Source: an uncultured Bacilli bacterium (GTDB lineage: Bacteria > Bacillota_I > Bacilli_A > RF39 > UBA660). Taken from it: 64,000 bases of DNA. Positions 44,285-57,625 of the stretch are shown here, piece by piece; the stretch's first letter is position 1; every line of letters begins with the position of its first letter. The stretch spans positions 17,303 to 81,302 of the forward strand of contig CALVYA010000002.1 in the NCBI GenBank assembly GCA_944371905.1, given 5' to 3'. The notes beneath the pieces were generated by a model that was not told the origin of the DNA, did no database searches, and saw nothing but the letters and a program-made list of their open reading frames with translations. Made by a program: the position numbers and the translations under genes.

Positions 44285-44288
44285 TGCT

Positions 44289-44307
44289 ACTAATCTAAAA
44301 AGATAGC
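44289..44307. repeat. left terminal inverted repeat of element 1
   Basis: actaatctaaaaagatagc is the reverse complement (18/19) of 47381-47399. Confidence 0.9.
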
Positions 44308-44308
44308 A

Positions 44309-45709
44309 TCATAATTTAGAAAAATTATAAATAATTTTGATTTGCTTATTTCTACTAATTGTAATTTTATTAATTAAAGAGAATAATAATTCTCTCGTTA
44401 TATAAATATTATCATAAACATTGTTGGTTGACAATTGATTCAGCTTTTTTAACTCTTGTTGTAATTCTTCTCGTTTTAATAAATAAGTTTCTACGTCAAT
44501 AATTTCATTAAGCCTATCTTCATATAAATACTTTAATTTTTTTTCTATTTTTTGTATATCTTGATTATTATTAATATTTCTTTGCTTTAATAATTGGTTA
44601 TTGATTATGAAAGATAAAAAGTTATTGATTCTATTCAAAACAAATTCTTCTAATTTTTGATAATTTATATAATGAGAAGTACAATTACTAGAATTATTTC
44701 GATAGGTATTGCAAGTCATAATATATTGTTTTCTTTTATTGGAATAACTAACCCCTAATAGACTACCACATTCCAAACAATAAACTAAACCTTCTAATAA
44801 TAACTTATTTCGAATAATATGATGTCCTTTTTTTCTTTTTCTAGATTGAATAATTTCAAATAATTCCTCACTAATGATTTTTTCTTGGGTATTATTTATT
44901 ACTACCCATTCTTGCTGATTCCTTTTTATTCTTGTTTTATTTTTATAACTAACATTTGTCCATACATTACTAACTAGGCATCCCGTGTATTCCTTATTAT
45001 TTAAAATATTATATATACTAGAAGCAGTCCATTTTTGATTGGTGGGAGATAAAATATTTTGATTATTTAATTTAATCGCAATCTCTTTATTACTTTTGCC
45101 ATGAAAAGATAAGGAAAAAATTTGTTTAACAATATTAGCTTTATCTTGATCAATAATTAATTTATTTTTATTATTAGGATCTTTTACATAGCCATATGGT
45201 GCTCTACTTCCCAAAAATAATCCTTGTTCTTTCTTAGTTTTCAAAATTGATTTTATTTTTTTAGAAGTATCTTTAGAAACCATATCATTAAACAACGCTT
45301 TAAAGGGTGCTATATCATTATTACCAGTATCATAATAAGTATCAATTCCATCTAAAATTGAAACATATCTAATTTTATTGGTCGGGAAATAATTTTCCAC
45401 ATAATACCCTGTTTTAATATAATCTCTTCCTAACCTAGATAGATCTTTAGTTATAACCATATTTATTTTATTATTTTTTATATCATGTAATAATTGATTA
45501 AAAGCAGGTCTATTAAAATTAGTTCCTGAATAACCATCATCTACATACTCTTTTATCGAACTTAAATTGTGCTCTTTTAGATATCGATAAATCAATTTCC
45601 TTTGATTTTTTATACTCTCACTTTCTTTATTTTTTTCTTTAAATAAATCCTCCTTAGATAACCTAATATAAACTCCTACTTTAAAATTACAATTATTCAT
45701 CATAATCAC
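44309..45709 (-). CDS. large serine recombinase 1
   Basis: N-terminal resolvase domain (VGVYIRLSKED...DDGYSGTNFNRPAF...ITKDLSRLGRD), a recombinase domain and a Cys-rich zinc-ribbon region plus coiled coil. The tracked start is a GTG and two ATGs follow within 4 codons. Confidence 0.9.
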   Translation of the reverse strand: MIMMNNCNFKVGVYIRLSKEDLFKEKNKESESIKNQRKLIYRYLKEHNLSSIKEYVDDGYSGTNFNRPAFNQLLHDIKNNKINMVITKDLSRLGRDYIKTGYYVENYFPTNKIRYVSILDGIDTYYDTGNNDIAPFKALFNDMVSKDTSKKIKSILKTKKEQGLFLGSRAPYGYVKDPNNKNKLIIDQDKANIVKQIFSLSFHGKSNKEIAIKLNNQNILSPTNQKWTASSIYNILNNKEYTGCLVSNVWTNVSYKNKTRIKRNQQEWVVINNTQEKIISEELFEIIQSRKRKKGHHIIRNKLLLEGLVYCLECGSLLGVSYSNKRKQYIMTCNTYRNNSSNCTSHYINYQKLEEFVLNRINNFLSFIINNQLLKQRNINNNQDIQKIEKKLKYLYEDRLNEIIDVETYLLKREELQQELKKLNQLSTNNVYDNIYITRELLFSLINKITISRNKQIKIIYNFSKL

Positions 45710-45785
45710 ATTCTTGCCAATAAGTTTTTAAAATCTCTATAATATCCATATTTCCATATTCTTCAATGATTATATAATCTTTCAT
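45693..45785 (-). CDS. 30-aa acidic mini-ORF upstream of recombinase 1 (candidate accessory or directionality factor)
   Basis: Hand translation: MKDYIIIEEYGNMDIIEILKTYWQECDYDE*. It overlaps the recombinase start. The same arrangement occurs in elements 2 and 3. Confidence 0.4.
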   Translation of the reverse strand: MKDYIIIEEYGNMDIIEILKTYWQECDYDE

Positions 45786-45817
45786 ATTATCAACTCAATA
45801 AAAAATATGCAAAAAAA

Positions 45818-45842
45818 ATATTATTAGAATTTCTAATAATAT
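45818..45842 (-). terminator. terminator between the cargo operon and the recombinase operon of element 1
   Basis: atattattagaa/ttctaataatat palindrome followed by T8 on the minus strand. Confidence 0.55.
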
Positions 45843-46720
45843 TAAGCTTCGTTTTTATTAAATTTATTTCGGAGCATAAAATAATAGATAATCTGAATAG
45901 TACCTATTAATAAAACCACTAAACCATAATTAACAAAAGTACCAAAAATATTTTCTTTTACCAACTGAATCGTTGCTGTTGAATATTCTTCTTCTAAAAT
46001 TAATTTCATAGCAACATTCCCTAATCCGCCAAGAGAGGCAAATACTCCACCAGCTAAAACTGTTGTTACTCCTGTCCAAATAGCAAAACGATAAATTGAC
46101 CATCTAACAATAGCTATGATAGCAATAACTATGATAATCATTACGAATAATACTATTTTAGAACTATCTCCAAGTAAAACGCGAATCACATTCATATCTT
46201 CTTCGTTTATTTCATTCTTCATCTCATCATATGTCGGGAACATATTAGATATTTCGGAAGAATTTTCTTCCACTTCTACTAAGATATTATCATGTTGTTC
46301 TTCCGTTAAAGTGATGCCTAATTCTTGAGCAGTTCGATCTAAAACTTCATCAACTGTTTGTACTATTTTATCAGCTGTAATAATTATTCCTTCTTGTCCA
46401 CTTGATAAATAATGAGCAACATCTCCATAATACTCACTAATTAATGCTTTAAATTCATTAGAATTAATAATTCCATCCACTATTTGGCGATCTATATTAT
46501 TATTATCAGCAATAGTATATAATCTATCCAAACTATCACTATCATTAGTGGTTAAAATTTCTTTCATATCCATATCATTAACAATTGTTGATACATTATC
46601 TTTGCTAATTAATTTAGGACCAATTAATAATCCAATATACATACATATCATTATAAATAATACAAAGCATAAAAATAAACTAACGATTTTTGATATTACA
46701 TCTAACCCTTTATTTTTCAT
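45842..46720 (-). CDS. hypothetical membrane protein (292 aa)
   Basis: One N-terminal TM helix, a soluble acidic domain and 3-4 C-terminal TM helices. It overlaps the upstream acyltransferase gene by 11 nt. Confidence 0.6.
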   Translation of the reverse strand: MKNKGLDVISKIVSLFLCFVLFIMICMYIGLLIGPKLISKDNVSTIVNDMDMKEILTTNDSDSLDRLYTIADNNNIDRQIVDGIINSNEFKALISEYYGDVAHYLSSGQEGIIITADKIVQTVDEVLDRTAQELGITLTEEQHDNILVEVEENSSEISNMFPTYDEMKNEINEEDMNVIRVLLGDSSKIVLFVMIIIVIAIIAIVRWSIYRFAIWTGVTTVLAGGVFASLGGLGNVAMKLILEEEYSTATIQLVKENIFGTFVNYGLVVLLIGTIQIIYYFMLRNKFNKNEA

Positions 46721-47324
46721 TTTGATTCTCCTTTTCTTTTCTATTATTAATAATTAATGTTTTGACCTTATCCATTAATTCATTATTAGCTTCTTCCAAA
46801 GAATTTGTTTTTATTTTATACGGTTTCCCAAAACAAATAGTAATTTGATTTTTCCTAAAAATTTTATATTTACCAGTAATAGAAAATGGCACTATAGTAC
46901 TATTGGTTTTTGAAGCCATAGATACTGCACCAAACTTAAATGGCATAATAACATCCTTCGTTCTATTGAATGTGCCTTCAGGAAAAATACCAATTAATTT
47001 TTGATCTTTTAATACTTTAATAGCTTTTTTCAAGGCTTCATGATCCTTTTGTCTCCTATTAACAGGAATGCAAGCCATGGCTTTAAAAAAAGGGGTTCCC
47101 AGACCTTTAAACAGTTCATCTTTTGCTAAAAAATGAATTGTTCTTTTTGTAGTACAAAACAATAAAGGAATATCCAAAATATTAGTATGATTTCCACAGA
47201 TTACAACAGAACCTTTTTTAGGAATATTTTCATTACCTATGATAGTAGGACGATACACAACTCTAAATAATCCATTGACAATTGGTCTTAAAATTCTATA
47301 TAGTATAGCATCTTTTTTTTCCAC
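46710..47324 (-). CDS. 1-acyl-sn-glycerol-3-phosphate acyltransferase family (PlsC-like)
   Basis: HX4D motif (NHTNILD) and FPEGT motif. Confidence 0.8.
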   Translation of the reverse strand: MEKKDAILYRILRPIVNGLFRVVYRPTIIGNENIPKKGSVVICGNHTNILDIPLLFCTTKRTIHFLAKDELFKGLGTPFFKAMACIPVNRRQKDHEALKKAIKVLKDQKLIGIFPEGTFNRTKDVIMPFKFGAVSMASKTNSTIVPFSITGKYKIFRKNQITICFGKPYKIKTNSLEEANNELMDKVKTLIINNRKEKENQNEK

Positions 47325-47380
47325 ATCTACACCTCTATTAATGATTACATTTATATTATAACACGTTATATTAATTATTT

Positions 47381-47399
47381 GCTATCTTTTTAAATTAGT
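47381..47399. repeat. right terminal inverted repeat of element 1
   Basis: gctatctttttaaattagt. See 44289-44307. Confidence 0.9.
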
Positions 47400-47405
47400 A
47401 GCAGG

Positions 47406-47627
47406 TGCTGATAAAGTAGCAGCAGCAATATTATCAGGTGATATGGATATTGCTTTCTGTGGTAGTGAAGCAACAATATATGTTTACAATGGTGGAGAAA
47501 AAGACTATTTAAAAACTTTTGCCCAATTAACACAAAAAGATGGAAGTTTTCTAGTTTCTAGAGAAAAAATTGACAATTTTACTTTAGATGATCTACGTGG
47601 TAAATATGTAATTGGAGGTCGTGCTGC
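47406..47627 (+). pseudogene. ABC substrate-binding protein gene, segment B (74 codons)
   Basis: ..ADKVAAAILSGDMDIAFCGSEATIYVYNGGEKDYLKTFAQLTQKDGSFLVSREKIDNFTLDDLRGKYVIGGRA. It is in frame with segment A once element 1 is removed. Confidence 0.85.
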
Positions 47628-47661
47628 CCTTCGGTTTTTATATGATAATTTTTTTAAGCAC

Positions 47662-49254
47662 TTAATCGGTGCTTAGCTCATTTATTAATAAATTAGGGTC
47701 TTTAATTTTATAATTTATTGTTATTTCTTTATTTTGTGTAATCATTATACTATCTATAATACAAGCAATTAAGTTTTTACTTGGTTTTCTTAATCTTAAA
47801 AATTCTTTAACTATACTTGTATAATCATTATTAGGCTTCATTTTGTTTTCTATTATCTCAAGTTGTGTTTCTAATTCTTTTAATTTTAATTGATTACTTA
47901 ATATATCGTTTATTATTTGATTATTAAAGTCTTTGTATTCTTCAAGTGTAATTACCTCATCTATTTTATCAAAGTAGATTTTATTTTTTCTTTTATTAAG
48001 TTTTTCTATTTCTAGATTACAAGAATTAATTTCTCCTTTTATTTTTTCTTTAACTTTGTTTCTTTTAGAAGCGTTTTTTAGTAGATTTTCAAAGTTAGTA
48101 CTATCCACATACTTCTTACACATTTCTCTTATTTCCCTTAATACTTCTTTTTCCAATTTTTGATAATTCATGGTATGAGGAGTACATACCTTAAACTTAC
48201 TATGCTTTTGATAATATGTACACCCTGTATATGCTCTATCTTCTGTTCTTTTTGATATTGAAATAGAGTGTCCGCATTCACTACAATATAAAAAGCCTCT
48301 TAACAAATAATTTGTTGAGTTATTTTGCTGATGTTTGTTCTTTTTATAGACTTGTTGTACTATATCAAACATTTCTTTATCTATTATAGGCTCATGTGTA
48401 TTTTCTATAACAATCCAACTAGATTTAGGAGTTCTTATTTCTTTTTTTATCTTATAATTAATAGTTTTTCTTCTTCCTTGACATAGATTTCCTATATATG
48501 TAGGATTACATAACATTTCATCTATTGTTCTTGAACACCACAAACCATAAGAAGAAGATTTAACACCACGATTTAAATTAGCATATACACTAGGTATTGG
48601 AATACCCTCTTTAGATAAAGTATCTGCTATCACTTTACAACTCATACCATCATAAGCCATTTTAAATATTCTTCTAACTATTGGCGCTACTTCTTCATCT
48701 ATAACTAATTTATATCTATCATTTTCATCTAGTTTATAACCATATACTGCTTTCCAACCAAGAAACTTGCCTTCTTCTTTTTTACTTCTTAAACTTCTTC
48801 GTACTTTTTTTGAAGTGTCTTTTGCATATTGGTCATTAAAAACTGCTTTAAATGGTGCTATATCATTACTGACACTATCTAGGTATGTATCTATATCATC
48901 TAATATGGCAATATATCTTACATTATGTTGTGGAAAGTATTTTTCCATATATTCCCCAGCTTTGATGTAATCTCTACCAAGTCTAGAATAGTCTTTTGTG
49001 ATAACACAATTTATTTTTCCACTTTCTATATCTCTTATCATTCTATTAAAAGAAGGTCTATCGAATGTAGTTCCACTTACACCATCATCTACATATTCAT
49101 CATATATTTTAAAGTTTTCTTTTTGCTTGTTAATGTAATCTAGTATTATATTTCTTTGATTCGAGATACTTTCACTCTCTATTTTATTTTTATCTTCATC
49201 TTCTCTTGATAAACGAATATAAGAACCAACATTATATATTTTATCTTGTTCCAT
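47662..49254 (-). CDS. large serine recombinase 2 (paralog of recombinase 1)
   Basis: VGSYIRLSREDEDK...DDGVSGTTFDRPSF...ITKDYSRLGRDYIKAG. The start was chosen at MEQDK after a ggagg RBS. It is collinear with recombinase 1. Confidence 0.9.
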   Translation of the reverse strand: MEQDKIYNVGSYIRLSREDEDKNKIESESISNQRNIILDYINKQKENFKIYDEYVDDGVSGTTFDRPSFNRMIRDIESGKINCVITKDYSRLGRDYIKAGEYMEKYFPQHNVRYIAILDDIDTYLDSVSNDIAPFKAVFNDQYAKDTSKKVRRSLRSKKEEGKFLGWKAVYGYKLDENDRYKLVIDEEVAPIVRRIFKMAYDGMSCKVIADTLSKEGIPIPSVYANLNRGVKSSSYGLWCSRTIDEMLCNPTYIGNLCQGRRKTINYKIKKEIRTPKSSWIVIENTHEPIIDKEMFDIVQQVYKKNKHQQNNSTNYLLRGFLYCSECGHSISISKRTEDRAYTGCTYYQKHSKFKVCTPHTMNYQKLEKEVLREIREMCKKYVDSTNFENLLKNASKRNKVKEKIKGEINSCNLEIEKLNKRKNKIYFDKIDEVITLEEYKDFNNQIINDILSNQLKLKELETQLEIIENKMKPNNDYTSIVKEFLRLRKPSKNLIACIIDSIMITQNKEITINYKIKDPNLLINELSTD

Positions 49255-49324
49255 TTTACCTCCAATCCAAAGTAAAATATATATGTTTATTAACACATAT
49301 ATTATACCATTTTTATCCTTATTT

Positions 49325-49441
49325 TTAAAGGCTTTGTGATATTTCTAACTCATAAAATTCGTAGTAATATTCGAGTAAAAATTTTTCTATTATTTCTTGT
49401 AAATCTTTACCATCTTTATTAAAAGTACTTGTTATTTTCAT
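49325..49441 (-). CDS. 38-aa mini-ORF upstream of recombinase 2
   Basis: Hand translation: MKITSTFNKDGKDLQEIIEKFLLEYYYEFYELEISQSL*. It is co-directional and acidic. The EIIEKFLLEY stretch loosely resembles DIIEILKTYW of mini-ORF 1. Confidence 0.4.
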   Translation of the reverse strand: MKITSTFNKDGKDLQEIIEKFLLEYYYEFYELEISQSL

Positions 49442-49737
49442 AAATTCACCTATTTAAACTTATGCCGACATAAATTGTTTTATTAAATCCTTTCTTTGCT
49501 TAAGCAACTTTAGAATACCAATAATCAAAAAATCTTTCTTTTACAAAAAACAAAATAAAGTGTTATATTTTTACAAAATTAAAACCTTTATTTTATAAGG
49601 GCTAAAGGTACTTTTACAACCGATTTTTCGAGTAGAAAGTCAGTTTTTAGACATATTTTAATATTAAAAAAACTTTGTTAAGATGAAATCACAAGAGCAA
49701 GGAACCAACTCTTGAAAATATGAAAGGAGAATAAAAG

Positions 49738-49965
49738 ATGGTAGTAGATGATTATAAAATTAAGTTAGAAATCATAAAACTTTCTATTATGAAACACACA
49801 GGAAGAGAAATCAGCGAAGAACTATTGAATAAGTTTTGTAAATATTTAACTATGGAATATGAAAATAATTCATCTAAAAATAGTATTGATAATCGTATCA
49901 ATAGTATTTGTAGAACTATTACTATAAAATACGATAAATATATGAGAATTATCAATGCTAACTAA
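49738..49965 (+). CDS. hypothetical protein (75 aa)
   Basis: Good RBS (gaaaggag). No motif recognised. Confidence 0.5.
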   Translation: MVVDDYKIKLEIIKLSIMKHTGREISEELLNKFCKYLTMEYENNSSKNSIDNRINSICRTITIKYDKYMRIINAN

Positions 49966-50056
49966 TTTAAGTTTATTTAAACCCAAATAAACTTAATTAA
50001 ACTTATAAATAAGTCATTTAGGATAAATGCTTATTGCTTTGTATTATATTTCCTTA

Positions 50057-50082
50057 AAAGTGATAAAAAATATCACTTTTTT
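50057..50082 (+). terminator. rho-independent terminator
   Basis: aaaagtgata/tatcactttt stem followed by a T-run. Confidence 0.6.
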
Positions 50083-50145
50083 CGTTTTAGGGGCAGACAA
50101 GAGGTTCCAACAAACTATATAATACATAGCCAAGGAGATGAAATT

Positions 50146-51300
50146 ATGGGAAAAAAACATAGAACTTTAAATGATACTATCTTTAGAAATAGTAAATATA
50201 TAGAGGTGGTAAATAAACAAGTCGGTTGTGATGACTTTAAAAAAGAGTGCCAAAATCCTAATTCTCAATATAAGGGTCAATATGATTTTATGTTGGAAAC
50301 TTTTAAAACTCTTATTTCACTTTATAATTGTTTTTATAGTGATAGCAACTTATCATTTCTTGAAAAAGTAGAAAATGCTATAAATATTATGGAAGAATAC
50401 ATTTATAAAGATTACGAAGTTGATAAGAAAAAATATAGTGTTAGATTTATTCAAAGTGTGAGTGATAAATATAGCACATATCTATATAGAAAAATAAGTA
50501 ATGATGAAACAGGTTGGTATGTTATATTAGATGATATAGATTCTAAAGAAATAAATACCTCTCCCATAGCTAAAAATGTTATAAAAGAAATTGAAGAAGA
50601 AATGACAAAACTTGAAAATATAGGCTTTGATGATATGGTCAAAGGCTCTATTGCTTATAAAAAAAATAAAGATAGTGATTACAAAATCTATATAAGTAAG
50701 TTTGACAGTTTAAATACAAAGCAAGAACAATTTATAGAGGAATTTAGTACTAAATACAACGAAAGCCATATAACTCCCTTAAATGATAATGAACTGACTA
50801 ATATAGCCTTAATTTATAACCTTGTAGCAAAAGTTAATAATGGCATAGTAAAAGTTCTTTCAAACAAACCAAATAAAAACTATAACTTAAATGAAAGGTC
50901 AACCCCTAGCAACTATTACAAGGCTTATCTTGATAGTTTAAATATTAGTATTGATGATAGTTTCTTTACACTTAATGCTAATGCTTTTATGATGAATGTA
51001 ATTATCACTTATTCTAATTCTTGCGGAGCAAAAGGCTTATCTCTAAATGATATGATAAATAATTTTGATATGTATTACTTTCTTGATAAAATAGAAAATT
51101 CCGTAGTCAAAAAAAATCTTTCAGTTAGTGATGAAAGAATACAAAAAATAATTTTAGACTTGAAACAAATTTATAACATTATTACAACAAAAAATAATGG
51201 ACTTGATGAATTATTTAATAATTTTAAAAGAGCCAATGAAATAATACTAAATATTATGAGCCGAGATAATAACTTAAATTATTATATAAGAGTTAGTTAG
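50146..51300 (+). CDS. hypothetical protein (384 aa), unknown-function cargo
   Basis: RBS aaggag. No Walker, nuclease, HEPN or other motif is visible. It is translationally close (8 nt) to the next gene. Confidence 0.6.
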   Translation: MGKKHRTLNDTIFRNSKYIEVVNKQVGCDDFKKECQNPNSQYKGQYDFMLETFKTLISLYNCFYSDSNLSFLEKVENAINIMEEYIYKDYEVDKKKYSVRFIQSVSDKYSTYLYRKISNDETGWYVILDDIDSKEINTSPIAKNVIKEIEEEMTKLENIGFDDMVKGSIAYKKNKDSDYKIYISKFDSLNTKQEQFIEEFSTKYNESHITPLNDNELTNIALIYNLVAKVNNGIVKVLSNKPNKNYNLNERSTPSNYYKAYLDSLNISIDDSFFTLNANAFMMNVIITYSNSCGAKGLSLNDMINNFDMYYFLDKIENSVVKKNLSVSDERIQKIILDLKQIYNIITTKNNGLDELFNNFKRANEIILNIMSRDNNLNYYIRVS

Positions 51301-51308
51301 GAGAAAAA

Positions 51309-52073
51309 ATGAATAAATTTAATGTTATGAAAATATTAGAAAAACAACAAAAAGAAAAAGAATTATTACATAAAGATTTAGAAAAAGAAGAATATTTGAA
51401 AAAAGTTTATAGTTTCATAGATGATTATGTTAAGCCACTACTTGAGAAAACAACTAATAATATAACCTATGGCTTTACTGACGATTTTGATACATTTATC
51501 TTATCAAAGAAAGTTGAAGATTTGCTTATTTATACGATAAAAATATTAGACTTAATTGGGAATAATATGTTCAAAGATATAGAGGAACCCCAACTTTTGC
51601 AAAATGCTTTGCTTAATGAAGAAATAGGTTTTTTAAACAAAGATAAAAAAATAAAGAAACAAGTAGCAACAAAATTATGTGGTTATATAACAAAAAGATT
51701 ATCTTATGAAGATAACTTGAATAATTATGTTGATGAATATATAAAACCTATGTTTATTAAGTTAGGCAAAGAAAATAAAATTGTTTTCGATTTAAACTCT
51801 AAAGATGAGAATAAATTGCTTATCTCTAATAACACAATAGAGTTATCAAAATTAGGTGTTTGTGAGAATACTATTATAAGTTTAGTTTTTCCTTTTACAA
51901 AAAATAATTATGATGAGAACACATTAAGGCATTTAGACTTTCTTTTTAATAATGATACAGAAATAAAACAAGAGTTTGCCGATTATTTAGTTAATACTTT
52001 TGTAGAAAGATATAACGAGATAGATTTTATCAATGTAAAAAAATTTAACCTTATAAACATATTAAAAGAGTGA
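51309..52073 (+). CDS. hypothetical protein (254 aa), unknown-function cargo
   Basis: RBS aggag. No motif recognised. It forms an operon with 50146..51300. Confidence 0.6.
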   Translation: MNKFNVMKILEKQQKEKELLHKDLEKEEYLKKVYSFIDDYVKPLLEKTTNNITYGFTDDFDTFILSKKVEDLLIYTIKILDLIGNNMFKDIEEPQLLQNALLNEEIGFLNKDKKIKKQVATKLCGYITKRLSYEDNLNNYVDEYIKPMFIKLGKENKIVFDLNSKDENKLLISNNTIELSKLGVCENTIISLVFPFTKNNYDENTLRHLDFLFNNDTEIKQEFADYLVNTFVERYNEIDFINVKKFNLINILKE

Positions 52074-52100
52074 TAAAAGATTTTATTCTTTATCACTCTT
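52066..52100. terminator. bidirectional terminator shared by convergent genes
   Basis: 12-bp stem aagagtgataaa/tttatcactctt overlapping both stop codons. Confidence 0.65.
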
Positions 52101-52340
52101 ATTTTTTGTATTTTCTTTAAATAATTCGGCTATATCTATATCAAGTACAAGAGCTAACCTCCAAAGTGTTCCAAGTGAAAATGTTTGATGATTTTTACTT
52201 TCTATATTAGATATAAATTGTGTTGAATACCTCATTTTATTGGCTAATTGTTCTTGTGTAAGTCCTTTTAGTTGTCTTTGCTTTTTTATGTTCTTTGATA
52301 CTACTTCATATATATAGTTTTCATCATCTCTTTTAAACAA
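52083..52340 (-). CDS. XRE-family HTH transcriptional regulator
   Basis: LKGLTQEQLANKMRYSTQFISNIE... Confidence 0.85.
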   Translation of the reverse strand: MFKRDDENYIYEVVSKNIKKQRQLKGLTQEQLANKMRYSTQFISNIESKNHQTFSLGTLWRLALVLDIDIAELFKENTKNKSDKE

Positions 52341-52415
52341 TTATACCACCACCTAACACTATTAATATTTTCTCAAAAATAGCACTGAATATACTTACTC
52401 TATTCGCGTAAGTTG

Positions 52416-52424
52416 TGGTATAAT
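52416..52424 (+). promoter_or_regulatory. extended -10 promoter element, divergent from the XRE gene
   Basis: TGGTATAAT, with a weak -35 (ttactc) about 17 nt upstream. It points into a 470-nt ORF-free AT-rich tract. Confidence 0.45.
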
Positions 52425-52891
52425 AGTTTATAAGAAAGGAGTTTATAATTCTTAAAAGAAAAGAAGTTTGATGTGTTTATATGGAATAATATTATTAAAG
52501 GTTTATGACCGTGAAAATAATTATTAAAGTGAAATAGTATAAAATAATTATGAGTAAGAAGATATAAGTTATAATACTCGACATTCAACTATTGATTTCA
52601 CTTACAATATGGATATAGAAAATAATTAAGTTGATTTTTACTTAATAATGATACTTACAAATTAAAATATGATAAAAAAATAAATGTTTAATTGATGAAA
52701 AATAAAATATTATATGTAATTATTTATAGATAAACTATGATAGCTTTGATAAAATTAATTAATATTGTGTTATAATTAATATGTAATGCATTTTTTTATT
52801 TTATTTTTATATAGCAATAAGTTAATTTGATTAAAAGTATGCTTGTACAGGTATTTTTAATATAGATGTATAGAAGTGAAAGGAGGTTTTT

Positions 52892-53245
52892 ATGGAAACA
52901 AAATTTTGTGAAAATTGTGGTAATAAAGTTGCTATCGATGCAGTGATATGTCCAAAATGTGGCAGACAACTTGAAGAACTTAAAACAGAAGAAAATAAAT
53001 CAAATGCTTCGCAAGTAATTATTAACAATTCAAACATTGTTGATGGAGGATATAAAAAAAAACAATGTGATAAATGGATAACTTTATTATTATGTATATT
53101 TTTAGGAATATTTGGTGGTCATAAATTTTATGAAGGTAAAATTGGATTAGGTATTTTATATATTTTTACTTTTGGACTTTTTGGAATAGGTATATTAGTA
53201 GATTTTATAGTAATTTTATTTAGACCTAATCTTTATTATGTATAA
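52892..53245 (+). CDS. zinc-ribbon plus TM2-domain membrane protein
   Basis: FCENCGN..CPKCG followed by ...LLLCIFLGIFGGHKFYEGKIGLGILYIFT.. (TM2 domain pattern). Confidence 0.75.
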   Translation: METKFCENCGNKVAIDAVICPKCGRQLEELKTEENKSNASQVIINNSNIVDGGYKKKQCDKWITLLLCIFLGIFGGHKFYEGKIGLGILYIFTFGLFGIGILVDFIVILFRPNLYYV

Positions 53246-53259
53246 TAGGAGGAAATAAG

Positions 53260-54111
53260 ATGGAAGAAAAAAAGTTTTGTAAATTTTGTGGTGAGAAGAT
53301 TGATAAAGATAGTATTGTATGTCCAAAATGTGGCAGACAACTAAAACTTGTAAAAAATGAAATTAATGAAAAAAAGATAAATAATACACAAGAAAATGAA
53401 ATAAAATTTTATCAGCAACAGTGGTTTATGTGGATTATGTTAGTGTTTTTTGCACCAGTTGGAATATTTCTTATGTGGAAATTCAATGATAAAATGAAGA
53501 AAAATATTAAAATAATACTAACAGTAATATTTTCTATTTTCTTTATAATAGTAATATCAAGTAGTAGTTCTAATGATGTTAATGAGAACGGAACAAAATA
53601 TGAAACTAATAAAAAAATAACTGTTGAAATAGTAGATTTCAGTAATATGACAACTGCCGAAGTTGATAATTGGTGCAGTGAAAAAAAAGTTAATTGCAAA
53701 AGAGTTGAAGAATATAATGACACTATTGAAAAAGGTAAATTTGTAAGTCAAAGTATTGAAAGTTCAAAAACAATTTATGAAGGAGAACAAATAACAATAG
53801 TTTATTCGCTTGGAAAGGAACCAACAGTTAGCCAAAAAAATGCAGTAAAAAAAGCTGAATCATATTTAGATTATTCTGCTTTTTCAAGAAATGGTCTAAT
53901 TAAACAATTAGAATTTGAAGGTTTCTCAAATGCTGATGCAACATATGCTGTTGATAATATAATTGTTGATTGGAATGAACAAGCAGTGAAAAAAGCTAAA
54001 TCATATCTAGATTATTCTGCTTTTTCAAGAAATGGTTTAATTAAACAATTAGAGTTTGAAGGTTTTACTTACGAACAAGCAGTATATGGCGTTGAACAAA
54101 ACGGATTATAA
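53260..54111 (+). CDS. zinc-ribbon/TM/PASTA-like protein with two Ltp-type repeats (superinfection-exclusion-like)
   Basis: FCKFCGE..CPKCG, one TM helix, a PASTA-like segment (ITVEIVDFSNMTTAEVDNWC...GEQITIVYSLG), then two copies of AVKKA.SYLDYSAFSRNGLIKQLEFEGF. Confidence 0.7.
   Translation: MEEKKFCKFCGEKIDKDSIVCPKCGRQLKLVKNEINEKKINNTQENEIKFYQQQWFMWIMLVFFAPVGIFLMWKFNDKMKKNIKIILTVIFSIFFIIVISSSSSNDVNENGTKYETNKKITVEIVDFSNMTTAEVDNWCSEKKVNCKRVEEYNDTIEKGKFVSQSIESSKTIYEGEQITIVYSLGKEPTVSQKNAVKKAESYLDYSAFSRNGLIKQLEFEGFSNADATYAVDNIIVDWNEQAVKKAKSYLDYSAFSRNGLIKQLEFEGFTYEQAVYGVEQNGL
53842..54066 (+). repeat. intragenic direct repeat (two 84-bp copies, period 141 bp)
   Basis: 53842-53925 and 53983-54066 differ at only about 6 positions. 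They encode the two Ltp-type repeats. Confidence 0.85.
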
Positions 54112-54182
54112 AATAAAAGAGTATATAATCAATTATATGCTTTGTTTTAATCTATTTACACAAAACTACACAAAATTAGAGA

Positions 54183-54237
54183 AAAGTCTTTGATAACCTA
54201 CTATATATATGAGGAGGTGTTACTATCAAAGACTTTT
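54183..54237 (+). terminator. 14-bp-stem hairpin plus T-run; terminator and/or translational control of the next ORF
   Basis: aaaagtctttgata (54183-96) pairs with tatcaaagactttt (54224-37). The 27-nt loop holds the gaggagg RBS. TTTTTT follows. Confidence 0.5.
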
Positions 54238-54395
54238 TTACTTTAAAAGATGCTTGTAAGATTATAAATATATCTTATAAAACACTTTATAGTTGGGTTA
54301 AAAATAATGAAGTATCTTACACTAAAATTGGTAATAGATATTATATGACACAAGAGCAAATCAATGCTCTTGTTTTTGTTTATAACAAATCATAG
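54225..54395 (+). CDS. excisionase-type (HTH_17/MerR-like) DNA-binding protein, apparent non-canonical ATC start
   Basis: Hand translation: IKDFFTLKDACKIINISYKTLYSWVKNNEVSYTKIGNRYYMTQEQINALVFVYNKS*. A GGAGG lies 7 nt upstream. There is no ATG, GTG or TTG in frame after the preceding stop. Confidence 0.5.
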   Translation: MKDFFTLKDACKIINISYKTLYSWVKNNEVSYTKIGNRYYMTQEQINALVFVYNKS

Positions 54396-54476
54396 TTTTG
54401 TATTGCTTAAAAACTTAACACAAGCCACGATATAATATTAAAATCAAATTGTAAAAATTAAATAAGGAGGAAAAAA

Positions 54477-55274
54477 ATGTATAGCATATATCAAAATAGA
54501 TATGCCAATAAATTACACTTAAATATTATAAAAGTTAAATATTCAAAGGAACATACCTTACTTGAAAGAGATTTTAGCATTAAATTAAGTGATGATTACA
54601 ACGATTTAGCAAACGACTTAATAACATACAAATTATATCTTTATTTAGGTAGTTTACTAAGTCAAAATGCTTTAAGAAATGAAATACTAACACTTGATAC
54701 AAAAGCCTTTCTAAATGCCTTAAAAACAACTAAAAAGGCTTATATTATATCATCGCTTGAATATTTAAAAGCCATAAGGTTTAAATACTACTATTTTAAA
54801 GGTAAGAAGAACAACAAAGGCTATATCAAAGAAATAAGAAATTGTAGTATTATTGATGATTATTCTTCTTCAAAAGGTAGTATAACAATTAGATTTAATA
54901 AAGATTATTTAACCTTACTTGGTTATAGTAGATTAACCTTACAACTACCTAACGAGCTATTTACTATGAATATAACAAAATATCATCATAGTTTATTTAT
55001 GGGAGTTCGTATCTTATTACATAGACAAGTGAATTTTAATAAGAAACAAAGAAATGTTATATCAGTAAAAGAAATAACAAAATATTGTCCTTTACTCCCT
55101 TGTTATGATGATTTAAACGAAAGTAAGCAAGTATCAAGAAATATATTAGAGCCATTTAAAAAAAATATGGACTTTATGTGGGAAATACTTAATTTTACTT
55201 GGAAGTATGAAAATGAGCTAACTACATATAACTCATTTATAAATAATAAAATAATCTTTGAGTGTAGAAATTAG
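54477..55274 (+). CDS. putative replication initiator (Rep-like, winged-helix)
   Basis: The call rests on its position directly upstream of a DnaB-C-like ATPase and an AT-rich palindromic region, plus general resemblance to RepB/Rep_3-type proteins. It is weak. Confidence 0.35.
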   Translation: MYSIYQNRYANKLHLNIIKVKYSKEHTLLERDFSIKLSDDYNDLANDLITYKLYLYLGSLLSQNALRNEILTLDTKAFLNALKTTKKAYIISSLEYLKAIRFKYYYFKGKKNNKGYIKEIRNCSIIDDYSSSKGSITIRFNKDYLTLLGYSRLTLQLPNELFTMNITKYHHSLFMGVRILLHRQVNFNKKQRNVISVKEITKYCPLLPCYDDLNESKQVSRNILEPFKKNMDFMWEILNFTWKYENELTTYNSFINNKIIFECRN

Positions 55275-55390
55275 AGCAAAGTTTAGCAGATTTTGAGTTT
55301 TGATATGTAGATGACATTTGTTAGAAACACTTATAAATCAATACTTTTTGAGATGTTTATTTCCTTAAATATAATAAGTATATTATATAT

Positions 55391-55417
55391 AGCACTCACT
55401 CTTTAAAGAGTGGTGCT
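55391..55417. promoter_or_regulatory. 27-nt palindrome followed by a (TA)n tract: candidate origin or terminator
   Basis: agcactcactcttt/aaagagtggtgct, then tatatatatata. It lies in the 265-bp gap between the Rep-like and helicase-like genes. Confidence 0.35.
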
Positions 55418-55540
55418 TATATATATATAACTTAATTTTTACAATAAAAAAAAACTATAAAACTCATATAGAGTATATTATATTCTACTTATAATAGTAA
55501 GAACAATATATGTATATAAAAATTTTAGAAGGAGAAAAAA

Positions 55541-56368
55541 ATGCTGACTATAGATGAATATAAAAACTATATAACTAATGAAAACAATGTAAGAAAAATA
55601 CCAACTAACTTTAGCAAATTAGATAATATATATGGTGGAGGTTTATCAAAAGGACTAACCATTATTGGTGCTAACACTGGCTTAGGCAAAACAACTTTTG
55701 TCTTACAACTTGCTGATAATGTAGCACAACAACCTAACACAAAAGTTTTATTCTTTTCTATGGAATTAACTAAATATGAGTTGGTGTCAAAGTCTTTAAG
55801 CCGATTATCTTATTTAGATAACAACTTAACTAATCATACACCTAATGATTTTATAAGTAATGGTGTTGATGATTTGGATACTTATTATAGTCATTATGAG
55901 CCAATGGGAAATAATGTTTATATAGTTGATAATATTAGAAGTATTATGAAAATATCTAAAACTATTTACGACTTTTGTAATGAGTTTGAAAATGACAAAG
56001 TTGTTGTTATTATTGATTACATACAATTTATAAATTGTAATGGAAGCAACGATAAGCAAAATGTTGATATAATCACACGAGAACTTAAAGCACTTGCCAA
56101 TAATTACAATATACCTATTGTGGCAATTAGTAGTTTAAGTCGTGAGGGTGCTAAAAGAAATGATATATCATCATTTAAGGAAAGTGGTTCAATAGAATAT
56201 ACCGCTGATTATTTAATTATTATGTATCAAAAGCAAAATAATAGAGAGTTGGCTTTTACTGATGATACTGATACTATAACAGTTCAGTTTCTAAAAAATA
56301 GATTTGGAGTAAAAGGACAATTTGATTTAAAGTATATTGGAAATTATGCAACATTTAAGGAACTTTAA
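55541..56368 (+). CDS. DnaB-helicase C-terminal-domain-like (RecA-fold) ATPase
   Basis: Walker A GANTGLGKTT, Walker B VVVIIDYIQ, ...ISSLSREG... Confidence 0.75.
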   Translation: MLTIDEYKNYITNENNVRKIPTNFSKLDNIYGGGLSKGLTIIGANTGLGKTTFVLQLADNVAQQPNTKVLFFSMELTKYELVSKSLSRLSYLDNNLTNHTPNDFISNGVDDLDTYYSHYEPMGNNVYIVDNIRSIMKISKTIYDFCNEFENDKVVVIIDYIQFINCNGSNDKQNVDIITRELKALANNYNIPIVAISSLSREGAKRNDISSFKESGSIEYTADYLIIMYQKQNNRELAFTDDTDTITVQFLKNRFGVKGQFDLKYIGNYATFKEL

Positions 56369-56385
56369 CGAGTTCCTTTTATTTT
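56357..56385 (+). terminator. terminator overlapping the ATPase stop
   Basis: aaggaact/agttcctt stem followed by ttatttt. Confidence 0.5.
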
Positions 56386-56491
56386 GGGAAAATATTTTAG
56401 TCGTTTAATTTTAGGGCAACCCATTGATATAAAAAAAGTAGTAGAAAAAGTTATTTAACTTAGCCCCTACTACAAGGAGGAATAAAAAATT

Positions 56492-56677
56492 ATGAAACAA
56501 AGATTTTTAACACTTGTAGAGGTATGTGATAGCCTACATACTTCTATTGGGTATATAAAGAAACTAATTGATGAGGGAAAAATTAAGGCTATTAAATCAT
56601 CAAAAAATTACTTAATTAGTGAGTTTGAATATTTAAAACTAATTGAGTTTATGGAGGTACAGCATAATGAAAAATAA
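56492..56677 (+). CDS. excisionase-family HTH protein
   Basis: FLTLVEVCDSLHTSIGYIKKLIDEGKIKAIK. Confidence 0.6.
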   Translation: MKQRFLTLVEVCDSLHTSIGYIKKLIDEGKIKAIKSSKNYLISEFEYLKLIEFMEVQHNEK

Positions 56678-56975
56678 TAAAATAAGTATAGATTTAGATA
56701 TTGAGGACTTATTAGGTATTAAGGAAACAAGCAAAGATAGTTTAGAATATGATTTAGAGTTTATAATCAATAATGGTTATGATGAATATATCAAGCAACA
56801 AGAAGAACACAACAAAAAGAAACAAGAATTTATAGAACTATTTAAAGAGTGTTATGATGAGTTATGCATTTTTATGGAAAAAGACCCTAAACAAAGAGTT
56901 GCTATATCTTGCTTTACTTGTATCAAAGGTATGGACTTATCTAAACAATATGGTAAGCCAAAAAAAGATAAGTAG
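56667..56975 (+). CDS. hypothetical protein (102 aa)
   Basis: The start was chosen at MKNNKISIDL after a ggagg RBS. No motif recognised. Confidence 0.5.
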   Translation: MKNNKISIDLDIEDLLGIKETSKDSLEYDLEFIINNGYDEYIKQQEEHNKKKQEFIELFKECYDELCIFMEKDPKQRVAISCFTCIKGMDLSKQYGKPKKDK

Positions 56976-57005
56976 TTAAATGATAACTTGCTTATCTTTC
57001 TTTTT

Positions 57006-57254
57006 TTATTGTTTCATTATTTCATTATAGAGTATTATTTGTTTCTTATTGTTCTTTTGAAACTCCCTTCTAAAATCTTTTTGTAATTTTTCAAAATGAT
57101 TATATAAAAGTCCTCTTTCTTTATCAGTAAACTTACTATCTTCTTTTAGGCTTTCTTCTAACATTTGATGAACTACTAGCATTTCTATCATTGTATTATT
57201 CATTTTTTCAGTTAAGTTAAATCTTAACTCATTTATATTTGTACACTTTTTCAT
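57006..57254 (-). CDS. hypothetical coiled-coil protein (82 aa)
   Basis: The internal ATG (MKKCTNINELRF) has an agagg RBS. The longer tracked ORF runs into the element end and is unlikely. Confidence 0.45.
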   Translation of the reverse strand: MKKCTNINELRFNLTEKMNNTMIEMLVVHQMLEESLKEDSKFTDKERGLLYNHFEKLQKDFRREFQKNNKKQIILYNEIMKQ

Positions 57255-57411
57255 TTTATACCTCTTTCTTATAATTAGATTTGTTAATAAACACATAATT
57301 TTACCCTTATTGTACCTTGATTTTTTATATTTGTTATCACTATTAACCCAAAGGGGGGGTCGGTGTATCGGTAGTAACATTTTTTTAGTTATCACTTTTG
57401 ATGAGAAAAGC

Positions 57412-57558
57412 CGGAATGCCCGAAATGACCTTTGAATGGGCCTTAAGAGAAGCAGGCATTGATCCCAAAAATGATTTAACTATTGATACTAGTATTGAAT
57501 TTGCTTCTATGGGAGGAGCATTTATTAGTGGTATTGGAGATTTTGTTACTTTATTTGA
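57412..57558 (+). pseudogene. ABC substrate-binding protein gene, segment C (49 codons)
   Basis: ..GMPEMTFEWALREAGIDPKNDLTIDTSIEFASMGGAFISGIGDFVTLFE. It is in frame with segment B after removal of element 2. Confidence 0.85.
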
Positions 57559-57625
57559 ACAAAGTGTTACAAAAAATAATATTCATAAAAAAAGATTTAA
57601 CCATACGATTAAATCGAATTTTTGT

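What the first reader, a model, noticed from the sequence alone, without database searches (positions are those of the whole stretch)
49738..52340. Unknown three-gene cargo block next to the XRE regulator is a candidate novel defence or accessory module
The genes at 49738-49965 (75 aa), 50146-51300 (384 aa) and 51309-52073 (254 aa; the last two are 8 nt apart) sit between the integrase module and the repressor. In prophages and satellites this position typically holds anti-phage or other moron cargo. I could find no Walker motif, nuclease, HEPN, TIR, Sir2, protease or TM signature by eye. The proteins may therefore represent an undescribed family pair. The block has its own terminators (50057-50082 and 52066-52100).
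Basis: inference. Interest (0 to 1): 0.62.

Follow-up and report, generated by a model that had tools for sequence, protein, structure and literature searches.

The report
Orphan core operon of mini-elements
The flagged genes are real, but they are not swappable cargo: two of them form a tightly coupled, self-contained operon with no known relatives that marks a previously undescribed family of small integrating DNA elements in uncultured gut bacteria, and its function is still unknown.

Summary
The first hairpin splits the block into g75 (49738-49965) and a coupled pair, g384 (50146-51300) and g254 (51309-52073).

No library gave a hit for g384 or g254: Pfam, NCBIfam, PHROGs, PADLOC, PDB sequences, and Foldseek against PDB (both models) and BFVD (g384 only). 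The g384 model is confident (pLDDT 89).

Both families are small: 96 representatives among 1.84 billion proteins for g384, 46 clusters for g254. g384 gave no match in the phage, plasmid or IMG/VR collections.

In 56 related loci, g384 lies next to a divergent integrase (37/37 testable; 27 serine and 15 tyrosine types). A g254-family gene follows within -29 to 13 nt (49/50). A hairpin and an extended -10 promoter (TGnTATAAT, 29/32) precede the pair.

Sister elements with an identical g75 keep int-g75-g384-g254-XRE unchanged and vary only to the right of XRE, where the window carries TM2 and Ltp-like exclusion genes. The pair is therefore the signature core of a 6-10 kb integrative, satellite-like element, not hotspot cargo.

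Best guess (about 0.4): a cytoplasmic two-protein module that interferes with phage by protein binding.

The parts
47662..49296 (-). Large serine recombinase, the integrase of the element. Context gene, divergent from the block.
   Evidence: Resolvase, Recombinase and Zn_ribbon_recom domains. An integrase lies divergently upstream of g384 in 37/37 loci with at least 3 kb of upstream sequence; 27 serine and 15 tyrosine types overall.
49325..49441 (-). Conserved 38-aa micro-ORF just upstream of the recombinase gene (MKITSTFNKDGKDLQEIIEKFLLEYYYEFYELEISQSL).
   Evidence: Homologous 33-34 aa ORFs sit at the same place in L002 and L058. It is called as a gene in 7 of 8 sister contigs.
49618..49632 (+). 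Conserved non-coding 15-mer AACCGATTTTTCGAG in the int-g75 intergenic region.
   Evidence: Unique in the window. Present with at most 3 mismatches upstream of g384 in 35/39 non-redundant loci, with serine or tyrosine integrase. IMG/VR matches are chance.
49676..49729 (+). Putative g75 promoter and leader: extended -10 TGTTAAGAT (49676-49684), stem-loop CAAGAG-CAAGGAACCAA-CTCTTG (49692-49714), RBS AAAGGAG (49723-49729).
   Evidence: Read. The block is conserved across loci, and the stem shows compensatory changes AAGAG/CTCTT <-> AAAGG/CCTTT. Function is inferred.
49738..49965 (+). g75: small basic helical protein (pI 8.9). Semi-core first gene of the rightward arm and a separate transcription unit.
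   Evidence: ORF. A jackhmmer family with C-terminal motif SKNSIDNRI..S..K.I...YD is found upstream of g384 in 27/47 loci. No significant family hit.
50056..50088 (+). Hairpin AAAAGTGATA-AAAAA-TATCACTTTT plus T-run: terminator of g75 and insulator in front of g384.
   Evidence: dG -10.9 kcal/mol, z -3.4. A hairpin plus T-run precedes g384 in 31/32 non-redundant loci, with different stem sequences and loop lengths.
50094..50123 (+). Promoter-like site for g384-g254: CAGACA, 18 nt spacer, TATAAT.
   Evidence: Scan hit, 10/12 matches. In 29/32 other loci the equivalent site is an extended -10 TGnTATAAT, mostly 8-12 nt after the hairpin.
50146..51300 (+). g384: acidic, soluble, mostly helical protein of an orphan family. 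Signature gene of the element family.
   Evidence: 163 homologues, none named and none with a Pfam domain. Only 96 representatives in 1.84 billion proteins. AF2 pLDDT 89.3, pTM 0.76. No Foldseek hit in PDB or BFVD. 13 invariant residues, including Y97, R100 and D162.
51309..52073 (+). g254: acidic helical partner protein, coupled to g384 (8-nt gap, RBS inside the end of g384).
   Evidence: A family member lies directly downstream of g384 in 49/50 testable loci, with gaps of -29 to 13 nt, mostly -1 to 13. Sizes run from 82 to 443 aa. Short forms keep the N-terminal ~55 aa and the C-terminal domain. AF2 pLDDT 70.5, good only for residues 110-250. No PDB fold hit. Only 46 clusters.
52066..52100 (.). 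Bidirectional hairpin terminator shared by g254 (+) and the XRE gene (-).
   Evidence: dG -15.4 kcal/mol (+) and -14.0 (-), z about -5 on both strands. The sequence shows a T-run after the stem on the + strand.
52083..52340 (-). XRE-family repressor candidate, convergent with g254.
   Evidence: HTH_3 E=1e-12. PHROG 'transcriptional repressor'. Present at this place in 34/46 loci.
52892..54111 (+). The variable cargo slot of the element. Here it holds a Zn-ribbon/TM2 membrane protein (52892-53245) and a Zn-ribbon/PASTA/Ltp-repeat protein (53260-54111).
   Evidence: TM2 2e-16 and Lipoprotein_Ltp 2e-32. PHROG 'superinfection exclusion' 2e-37. Sister elements with identical left arms carry other genes here, such as thioredoxin/TraF-like proteins. 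The number of Zn-ribbon membrane genes varies between loci.
54477..57395 (.). Rest of the element: 265-aa basic protein, DnaB_C-type helicase (55541-56368), HTH_17 protein (56492-56677), 110-aa protein, and a leftward basic end gene (ORF 57006-57395; it probably starts internally).
   Evidence: DnaB_C 1e-43 and HTH_17 1e-4. The helicase is about 32% identical to prophage replicative helicases. An end-gene homologue is present in 27/30 loci. The right element boundary is near 57400, where the split host gene resumes.

Best explanation
**What is shown**
- g384 and g254 are one coupled operon, insulated on both sides. An upstream hairpin terminator is followed by the operon's own promoter, and a bidirectional terminator closes it.
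- The operon is a fixed, family-defining part of a roughly 9.7-kb integrative element (about 47650-57400) inserted in an NMT1-type substrate-binding-protein gene.
- The element belongs to a family of 6-10 kb elements in uncultured low-GC gut Bacilli, Clostridia and Tenericutes-like MAGs.
- The family layout is: integrase (serine or tyrosine type), g75-like gene, g384, g254, XRE repressor, variable membrane or exclusion genes, HTH_17 protein, a replication module (exchangeable), and a small leftward end gene.
- No capsid, tail, lysis, terminase or relaxase match was found among the ten window proteins scanned, or among the precomputed Pfam hits for called genes in related loci.

**What is inferred**
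- The two acidic, helical, non-membrane proteins form a complex. The conserved N-terminal helix of g254 probably docks on g384.
- Because the unit carries its own near-consensus extended -10 promoter and is walled off from neighbouring transcription, it is probably made while the element sits integrated.
- It most likely acts by binding proteins rather than by catalysis, interfering with an infecting phage. That phage could be a competitor or a helper the element exploits.

I put about 0.85 on the structural and 'core, not cargo' claims. I put about 0.35-0.4 on the phage-interference mechanism.
For: - **Coupling and pairing.** Gaps of -29 to 13 nt, mostly -1 to 13. g254 family present in 49/50 loci. 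Pairwise identities of the two proteins correlate at r=0.90, against 0.69 with the recombinase or XRE.
- **Insulated unit.** Hairpins with z -3.4 and -5. Hairpin plus T-run in 31/32 loci and TGnTATAAT in 29/32 loci upstream of g384.
- **Fixed position.** Integrase upstream in 37/37 loci, of two unrelated types. The replication module varies (g265+DnaB_C versus HTH_36/Rep_O-like). The smallest element (L036, about 6.2 kb) still has the pair.
- **Unbiased look-up.** Sister elements found through the exact g75 protein keep the left arm and vary only to the right of XRE.
- **Element-restricted.** No g384 match in phages, plasmids or IMG/VR. Only 96 and 46 clusters.
- **Cassette-like allele exchange, as expected for a specificity determinant.** In L028 the recombinase is 76% and g75 87% identical to the window, but g384 is only 34% identical. 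The middle of g254 is variable or deleted.
- **Protein-binding character.** Acidic, soluble, helical, with no catalytic or nucleotide-binding family hit.
- **Phage-related element context.** XRE repressor, HTH_17, phage-type DnaB_C helicase and an Ltp-like exclusion gene.
Against: - There are no expression data, phenotype or helper phage, and the hosts are uncultured.
- The palindromic hairpin covers the -35 position of the promoter. It could be an operator, in which case the unit would be regulated rather than constitutive.
- Known defence systems usually move between many contexts. This pair is seen in only one.
- g384 has many invariant polar residues: N61, S67, Y97, R100, D162, N232, Y261, and nearly invariant H5, K96, E152 and a K-rich hairpin. 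This would also fit an enzyme or a nucleic-acid-processing protein.
- All but the loci were found through g384 itself. 'Every element of the family has it' is therefore not proven.
- The element was never seen in viral-particle collections.
Confidence: 0.4

Rival explanations
1. Life-cycle module. The pair is the element's own spreading machinery. It could be a helper-hijack function of a satellite, such as capsid-size redirection, packaging redirection or helper sensing, analogous in position to P4 sid-delta-psu between int and the immunity region. Alternatively it could be a non-canonical DNA-processing (relaxase-like) pair of an integrative mobilizable element.
For: - It is the only conserved non-regulatory, non-replication, non-integrase gene set of the family, and it is retained in the 6.2-kb minimal element.
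- The family is strictly element-restricted.
- Helical, fast-evolving proteins resemble satellite scaffold or redirecting proteins (own knowledge).
- Invariant K96-Y97-S98-x-R100 and D162 could form a catalytic centre.
- No other candidate for transfer or hijack is found among the element's genes scanned.
Against: - The unit is separated from the XRE-controlled rightward operon and has its own promoter. This is unusual for induced late functions.
- The proteins are acidic, which is unusual for DNA-processing enzymes.
- There was no match to any relaxase, Rep, terminase, scaffold or capsid model or structure.
- No conserved nick-site-like sequence was identified next to the pair. The upstream hairpin varies in sequence and loop length.
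- There is no trace in IMG/VR.
Confidence: 0.27
2. Regulatory or sensor module. g384-g254 controls the switch of the element, for example as an anti-repressor or induction sensor acting on XRE or on integrase expression. This would parallel ImmA/RapI-type modules that occupy the int-repressor interval in other Firmicute elements.
For: - The pair lies between the integrase and the repressor and shares a terminator with XRE.
- Pair identity correlates with XRE identity, r=0.69.
- The adjacent intergenic region is unusually conserved, with a 15-mer in 35/39 loci and a leader stem-loop.
Against: - The pair persists in loci where no XRE-type gene was detected, including L028, L032 and L036; L013, L028 and L032 carry a different leftward gene there.
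- There is no metalloprotease motif, TPR fold or HTH.
- 640 aa of protein is large for such a task.
Confidence: 0.12
3. Addiction or stabilisation module. This would be a toxin-antidote-like pair that penalises loss of the element.
For: Two coupled genes, an autonomous promoter, universal presence in the element, and co-inheritance.
Against: - Both proteins are far larger than typical type II partners.
- There is no toxin or antitoxin family hit.
- A solitary g384 without g254 survives in L029/L030, which argues against g384 being a toxin that needs g254.
Confidence: 0.08
4. One reading: exchangeable defence cargo (a moron) sitting in a hotspot between integrase and repressor.
For: - The unit is bounded by a promoter and terminators, like a moron.
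- Satellites and prophages do carry defence genes near the integrase (PMC10085698).
Against: - The slot never holds anything else in 49/50 loci or in the g75-anchored sister elements. Variation lies to the right of XRE.
- The pair is never found in any other context, apart from one solitary g384 remnant next to a tRNA gene.
- There is no PADLOC hit.
Confidence: 0.05

Closest known systems
Phage-inducible chromosomal islands and other small phage satellites (PICI/SaPI, PICMI; SatelliteFinder 'Type C' PICI-like elements)
   Same: - Size of 6-10 kb, integrated.
- Integrase, XRE-type repressor, HTH_17 (AlpA/Xis-like) protein and a phage-type replication module.
- No virion or lysis genes among the proteins scanned.
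- Carries phage-exclusion genes.
(PMC10085698)
   Different: - No homologue of Pri-Rep, TerS, Cpm, Ppi or Rpp.
- A serine recombinase in most members.
- The signature genes g384/g254 are unrelated to any satellite core gene.
- No helper phage is known, and the element is not found in viral contigs.
P4 sid-delta-psu operon (own knowledge)
   Same: A family-specific operon of helical proteins lying between the integrase and the immunity region of a small integrative satellite.
   Different: - No sequence or fold similarity.
- Opposite orientation relative to int.
- P4's operon is a late, activator-dependent operon. This one has a near-consensus extended -10 promoter of its own.
Prophage 'morons' and lysogenic-conversion units (own knowledge)
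   Same: An autonomous transcription unit (promoter, genes, terminator) embedded on the lysogeny side of a temperate-type element.
   Different: Morons are sporadic between related genomes. This unit is invariant in the family, and the variable genes lie elsewhere.
Integrative mobilizable elements of Firmicutes (PMC5704250, listed)
   Same: Small elements with a serine or tyrosine integrase and few other genes. Different integrases sit on the same backbone.
   Different: No relaxase, coupling-protein or recognisable oriT.
Intervening elements excised by large serine recombinases from interrupted genes, such as skin-type elements in sporulation genes (own knowledge)
   Same: Serine-recombinase elements that split protein-coding genes: an NMT1-type binding-protein gene here, and a CotZ spore-coat gene in L002.
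   Different: This family carries repressor and replication modules and the g384-g254 pair. Developmentally timed excision has not been shown.

Membership tests
Known anti-phage defence systems (PADLOC-DB v2 models) | At least one component matches a model of a described defence protein. | tested here: not met
   g75, g384 and g254 gave no PADLOC family at E<=0.1. Only the XRE gene and neighbouring genes gave generic HTH or membrane hits.
Known anti-phage defence systems (general behaviour) | The same gene set recurs in varied genomic contexts, such as defence islands and different mobile elements. | tested here: not met
   All 37 loci with enough flank show the same element architecture. No g384 match in phage, plasmid or viral collections.
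Known anti-phage defence systems (function) | Protection against phage on challenge. | not testable with these tools
   Needs cloning and phage assays. The hosts are uncultured MAG lineages.
Prophage moron | Own promoter and own terminator. | tested here: met
   Hairpins with z -3.4 and -5. Promoter-like site at 50094-50123. TGnTATAAT in 29/32 loci. This is sequence evidence only.
Prophage moron | Sporadic presence or absence between otherwise related elements. | tested here: not met
   Pair present in 49/50 loci. Unchanged in 8 distinct sister contexts found through g75.
PICI-type phage satellite | Integrase plus a master regulator (Stl/XRE or AlpA-like). | tested here: met
   Serine recombinase. 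XRE HTH_3 and an HTH_17 protein.
PICI-type phage satellite | Primase-replicase (Pri-Rep). | tested here: inconclusive
   A DnaB_C helicase and an unknown 265-aa basic protein are present, but no primase or Pri-Rep model matches. Other family members have HTH_36/DnaD_N or weak Rep_O-like proteins.
PICI-type phage satellite | Packaging or capsid-hijack gene (TerS, Cpm, Ppi, Rpp or similar). | tested here: not met
   No PHROG head/packaging hit of any significance for the ten element proteins scanned.
PICI-type phage satellite | Induction and packaging by a helper phage. | not testable with these tools
   No helper is known, and the family is absent from IMG/VR.
Integrative mobilizable element | Relaxase and/or oriT. 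| tested here: not met
   No relaxase or Rep_trans/HUH family hit, even at relaxed thresholds over 58 family members. No conserved nick-region was identified.
Complete prophage | Virion and lysis genes. | tested here: not met
   The element is about 9.7 kb. The ten proteins from 49738 to 56975 were scanned and the recombinase and end gene separately. None is structural or lytic.
RRNPP/Rap/AimR-type helical receptors (considered because of size and helical content) | TPR-like fold, usually with a small secreted-peptide gene downstream. | tested here: not met
   No Foldseek match to any PDB entry (best E 1.1). The downstream gene encodes a 254-aa cytoplasmic protein.

The most novel reading that the evidence does not exclude
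g384-g254 is a previously undescribed two-protein system with a new fold. It binds phage proteins, either to block a competitor or to hijack a helper. It is the defining module of a new family of mini-satellite-like integrative elements that are widespread in uncultured small-genome gut Bacilli and Tenericutes-like bacteria.
Probability: 0.3. Interest if true: 0.7.

Novelty: new variant of a known kind. Interest (0 to 1): 0.43.

Why it matters
If the pair is a phage-interference or hijack module, it would add a new protein fold and a new mechanism to satellite and defence biology. It would also define a family of very small integrative elements in gut lineages that have no cultured members and almost no described mobile-element biology.

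The practical result stands even without a function. The annotation 'cargo between integrase and repressor' is wrong here. The conserved operon can serve as a marker gene for finding these elements, and the true variable slot, with membrane and exclusion genes, lies to the right of the repressor.

The element's habit of splitting coding genes also raises the question of whether excision is timed. It splits a binding-protein gene here and a spore-coat gene elsewhere.

Tried and rejected
**Homology and fold searches, all negative for g384 and g254**
- Pfam, PHROGs, PADLOC and NCBIfam.
- PDB sequence profiles.
- Foldseek of the g384 model against PDB and BFVD, and of the g254 model against PDB.
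- Consensus of weak Pfam hits over 58 g384 family members, and of weak PHROG hits over 58 g384 and 22 g254 members. Nothing was consistent; Vsr appeared in 3 members at E=0.03 and I ignored it.
- An exhaustive profile search of 1.84 billion representatives gave only the family itself. One spurious hit fell on a HAMP-repeat protein.

**Collection searches for g384**
- tblastn against phages and plasmids gave no match.
- IMG/VR gave none.

**Ideas considered and dropped**
- HEPN: there is no Rx4-6H motif, and only two histidines in the sequence.
- RRNPP/AimR-like receptor: no TPR fold.
- ImmA-like protease: no HEXXH motif.
This remains unresolved.
- The two hairpins flanking the pair both contain a GTGATA/TATCAC core, which suggested cassette boundaries or a shared operator. 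Other loci have unrelated hairpins on each side, and loop lengths vary from 3 to 7 nt.
- A structured minus-strand leader or attenuator in front of the integrase: the fold in the window is not better than shuffles (z -0.67).
- The 15-mer used as a probe for g384-less relatives in IMG/VR returned 39 hits. All are chance: unrelated GC content and no homologous proteins.
- Circular contigs: no terminal repeats in the 57 loci held at that point.
- Rfam and tRNA scans of the window gave nothing.
Full report
**Observation**

- g75 at 49738-49965 (+)
- g384 at 50146-51300 (+)
- g254 at 51309-52073 (+), 8 nt after g384
- an 85-aa XRE/HTH_3 gene at 52083-52340 (-)
- a large serine recombinase at 47662-49296 (-)

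All three + strand genes have strong Shine-Dalgarno sequences. The first gives -10.9 kcal/mol (z -3.4). The second gives -15.4 and -14.0 kcal/mol on the two strands (z about -5).

The pattern scan missed both hairpins only because their stems are AT-rich. The first hairpin lies between g75 and g384, so the 'block' is g75 plus a two-gene operon.

**The proteins are orphans**

g384 and g254 gave no hit below E=0.01, and none above a family's cut-off, in Pfam, PHROGs, PADLOC or NCBIfam. PDB sequence profiles also gave nothing.

- g384 has 163 unnamed homologues. An exhaustive profile search of 1.84 billion representatives returned only 96 sequences, about 25 of them full length, with no bridge to any larger family.
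- g254 had 9 homologues as a single sequence and 46 clusters as a profile, none with a family annotation.
- AlphaFold2 gives a confident, mostly helical g384 model (pLDDT 89.3, pTM 0.76). It has no Foldseek neighbour in PDB (best E 1.1) or BFVD.
- The g254 model is good only for residues 110-250 and also has no PDB neighbour.
- Weak-hit consensus over 58 and 22 family members gave nothing consistent.
- Both proteins are acidic, soluble and without membrane segments.
- g384 keeps 13 invariant residues and about 35 nearly invariant ones. They are concentrated in the N-terminal half, in a Lys-rich beta-hairpin (residues 161-185) and at the extreme C-terminus.

**Context: a family of small integrative elements**

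I retrieved related loci from reference genomes (27), from metagenomes (20) and by exact-protein look-ups. Of these, 56 carry a g384 homologue.

Record titles place the hosts among uncultured Bacilli, Clostridia, 'Mycoplasma' and Tenericutes MAGs, and Clostridium sp. CAG:914. They come from human, rabbit, sheep and chicken gut.

ORF clustering and HMM searches show one architecture:
- Integrase (-). It is a serine recombinase in 27 loci. In 15 loci it is a tyrosine integrase, usually with an adjacent HTH_17 gene.
- A g75-like gene (27/47 loci), sometimes followed by one or two small acidic proteins.
- g384, then g254.
- XRE (-) in 34/46 loci.
- One to four Zn-ribbon or membrane proteins. This part is variable.
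- An HTH_17 protein, a protein of about 110 aa, and a replication protein.
- A small basic leftward end gene (27/30 loci).

An integrase lies upstream in 37 of 37 loci with at least 3 kb of flank.

Three further points about the family:
- Tyrosine-integrase versions abut tRNA genes. Serine-recombinase versions split coding genes: an NMT1-type binding-protein gene here and in L005, L006 and L028, and a CotZ spore-coat gene in L002.
- The replication module is exchangeable. It is g265+DnaB_C in the window, L005, L028 and L032, and HTH_36/DnaD_N or weak Rep_O-like proteins elsewhere.
- The smallest complete-looking element (L036, about 6.2 kb) still has the pair.

No capsid, tail, lysis, terminase or relaxase match was found among the window proteins scanned or the precomputed Pfam hits in related loci. 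The helicase is of the prophage type. g384 gave no match in the phage, plasmid and IMG/VR collections.

**The pair is a unit**

- A g254-family gene follows g384 in 49 of 50 loci with enough downstream sequence. Gaps are -29 to 13 nt, mostly -1 to 13.
- g254 varies from 82 to 443 aa. Short forms retain the N-terminal ~55 residues and the C-terminal domain and lack the middle.
- Pairwise identities of g384 and g254 across loci correlate at r=0.90. The correlation with the recombinase or XRE is 0.69.
- The one exception is a solitary g384 between a PBP5-like gene and a tRNA-Leu gene (L029/L030). It looks like a remnant.

**Core, not cargo**

Most loci were found through g384, so I checked with a g384-independent probe. 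The exact g75 protein occurs on 21 contigs read, in 8 distinct places.

All eight places keep recombinase, g75, g384, g254 and XRE unchanged, and seven of them also have the 38-aa micro-ORF called. The genes to the right of XRE fall into three variants: TM2 plus Ltp/PASTA as in the window, or thioredoxin/TraF-like sets with different replication genes.

The cargo slot is therefore 52892-54111. It holds a TM2/Zn-ribbon protein and an Ltp-repeat protein that matches PHROG 'superinfection exclusion' families at 2e-37.

The pair itself behaves like an allelic cassette. In L028 the recombinase (76%) and g75 (87%) are close to the window, but g384 is only 34% identical.

**Regulatory anatomy**

- In 31 of 32 non-redundant loci, a hairpin plus T-run precedes g384.
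- In 29 of 32, an extended -10 promoter (TGnTATAAT) follows, usually 8-12 nt after the hairpin.
- Stem sequences and loop lengths differ between subfamilies while the hairpin is kept. This fits an RNA terminator. An operator overlapping the -35 position cannot be excluded.
- In the window the promoter-like site is CAGACA-18-TATAAT at 50094-50123.
- With the bidirectional terminator at 52066-52100, the pair forms an insulated transcription unit.

**Interpretation**

Shown: a coupled, insulated, co-inherited operon of two orphan cytoplasmic proteins. It is fixed in, and restricted to, one family of 6-10 kb integrative, satellite-like elements.

Inferred: the proteins form a complex and are probably made in the integrated state. 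They probably act by binding other proteins. The most likely targets are proteins of an infecting phage, either a competitor or a helper. This fits the cassette-like divergence and the phage-related nature of the element. I give this about 0.4.

Rivals:
- a hijack or transfer module (0.27)
- an induction or sensor module (0.12)
- an addiction module (0.08)

The invariant polar residues of g384 keep an enzymatic role open.

**Comparison with known systems**

The element resembles PICI-like satellites. It meets the integrase and regulator criteria, the replication criterion is inconclusive, and the packaging or hijack gene criterion is not met. It also resembles integrative mobilizable elements but has no relaxase. 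SatelliteFinder's authors note that thousands of three-marker 'Type C' elements may hide new satellite families (PMC10085698).

The pair resembles a moron in its transcriptional autonomy but fails the sporadic-distribution criterion. In position it recalls P4 sid-delta-psu, without any similarity. It is not a member of any PADLOC family.

**Verdict**

The 'novel family pair' reading is supported. The 'cargo or defence hotspot' reading is not. This is a new variant of a known kind (small integrative, satellite-like elements) with an orphan signature operon. Interest is moderate (0.43): the novelty is real, but the function is unknown and the hosts are uncultured.

Noticed in passing
window 44064-44306, 47443-47676, 57398-57697 (+); element A about 44290-47400: One NMT1-type substrate-binding-protein gene is split into three pieces by two separate serine-recombinase elements. 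Element A carries a 466-aa recombinase (44309-45709), a 292-aa membrane protein and a PlsC-type acyltransferase. It is flanked by a 38-nt imperfect inverted repeat (44271-44308 / 47380-47417). Its excision would restore ...TLVPGA|DKVAAAIL... Sister genomes (L005, L006, L028) lack element A but have the g384 element at the same site.
   Followed up: partly
window 49325-49441 (-); also about 45693-45785 (-) upstream of element A's recombinase: A conserved 33-38 aa micro-ORF lies immediately upstream of the serine recombinase gene. It is homologous in L002 and L058, and gene callers find it in sister contigs. A 30-aa ORF is called at the equivalent place for the second recombinase. It could be a small partner or directionality factor, or a leader peptide.
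   Followed up: partly
window 49586-49716 (+): The int-g75 intergenic region is unusually conserved across elements with different integrase types. It holds the 15-mer AACCGATTTTTCGAG (49618-49632; 35/39 loci), an adjacent hairpin that reads as hairpin plus U-run on the minus strand, an extended -10 TGTTAAGAT, and a leader stem-loop with compensatory stem changes. A minus-strand fold in the window was not better than shuffles.
   Followed up: partly
L012, L015, L020, L022, L025, L027, L031, L046: int-proximal intergenic region, 750-1300 nt upstream of g384: In one subfamily the same region carries 3-5 tandem ~11-bp repeats (TTGTGATACTT / TTATGATAGTT). They look like iterons or multiple operator sites.
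   Followed up: no
window 52892-54111 (+): The true variable slot holds two genes that share a diverged Zn-ribbon N-terminus (direct repeat 52895-53004 / 53266-53375, 70%). The second gene has two Ltp repeats (53837-53954 / 53978-54095, 83%) and a PASTA domain. This is a membrane-anchored Ltp-like superinfection-exclusion candidate.
   Followed up: partly
window 52341-52891: A 550-nt stretch without any ORF of at least 40 aa on the + strand lies between the XRE start and the next gene. It contains an inverted repeat (52324-52355 / 52409-52440) and an extended -10-like TGGTATAAT at about 52417-52425 facing right. In other loci this interval is only about 100-150 nt. It could be an operator region plus a non-coding RNA or a decayed gene.
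   Followed up: no
L002 6962-7177 and 15143-15358 (same in L003, L004): A member of the same element family splits a CotZ spore-coat gene. This recalls skin-type intervening elements that are excised during sporulation.
   Followed up: no
L029 2891-4009, L030 2668-3786: A solitary g384 homologue, with no g254-family gene found next to it and no integrase in the ~2.7 kb available upstream, lies between a D-Ala-D-Ala carboxypeptidase gene and tRNA-Leu/glf. It is probably the remnant of a tRNA-integrated element, or a domesticated copy.
   Followed up: partly
phage records MT839351.1 (4.7 kb), MT837110.1 (7.7 kb), OR848374.1 (7.2 kb), OR846940.1 (8.6 kb): Very small records deposited as 'Bacteriophage sp.' and 'Listeria phage' match the element's DnaB_C helicase at about 30-33% identity. 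Their size suggests satellites or fragments rather than phages. None matched g384 in the tblastn search of this collection.
   Followed up: no
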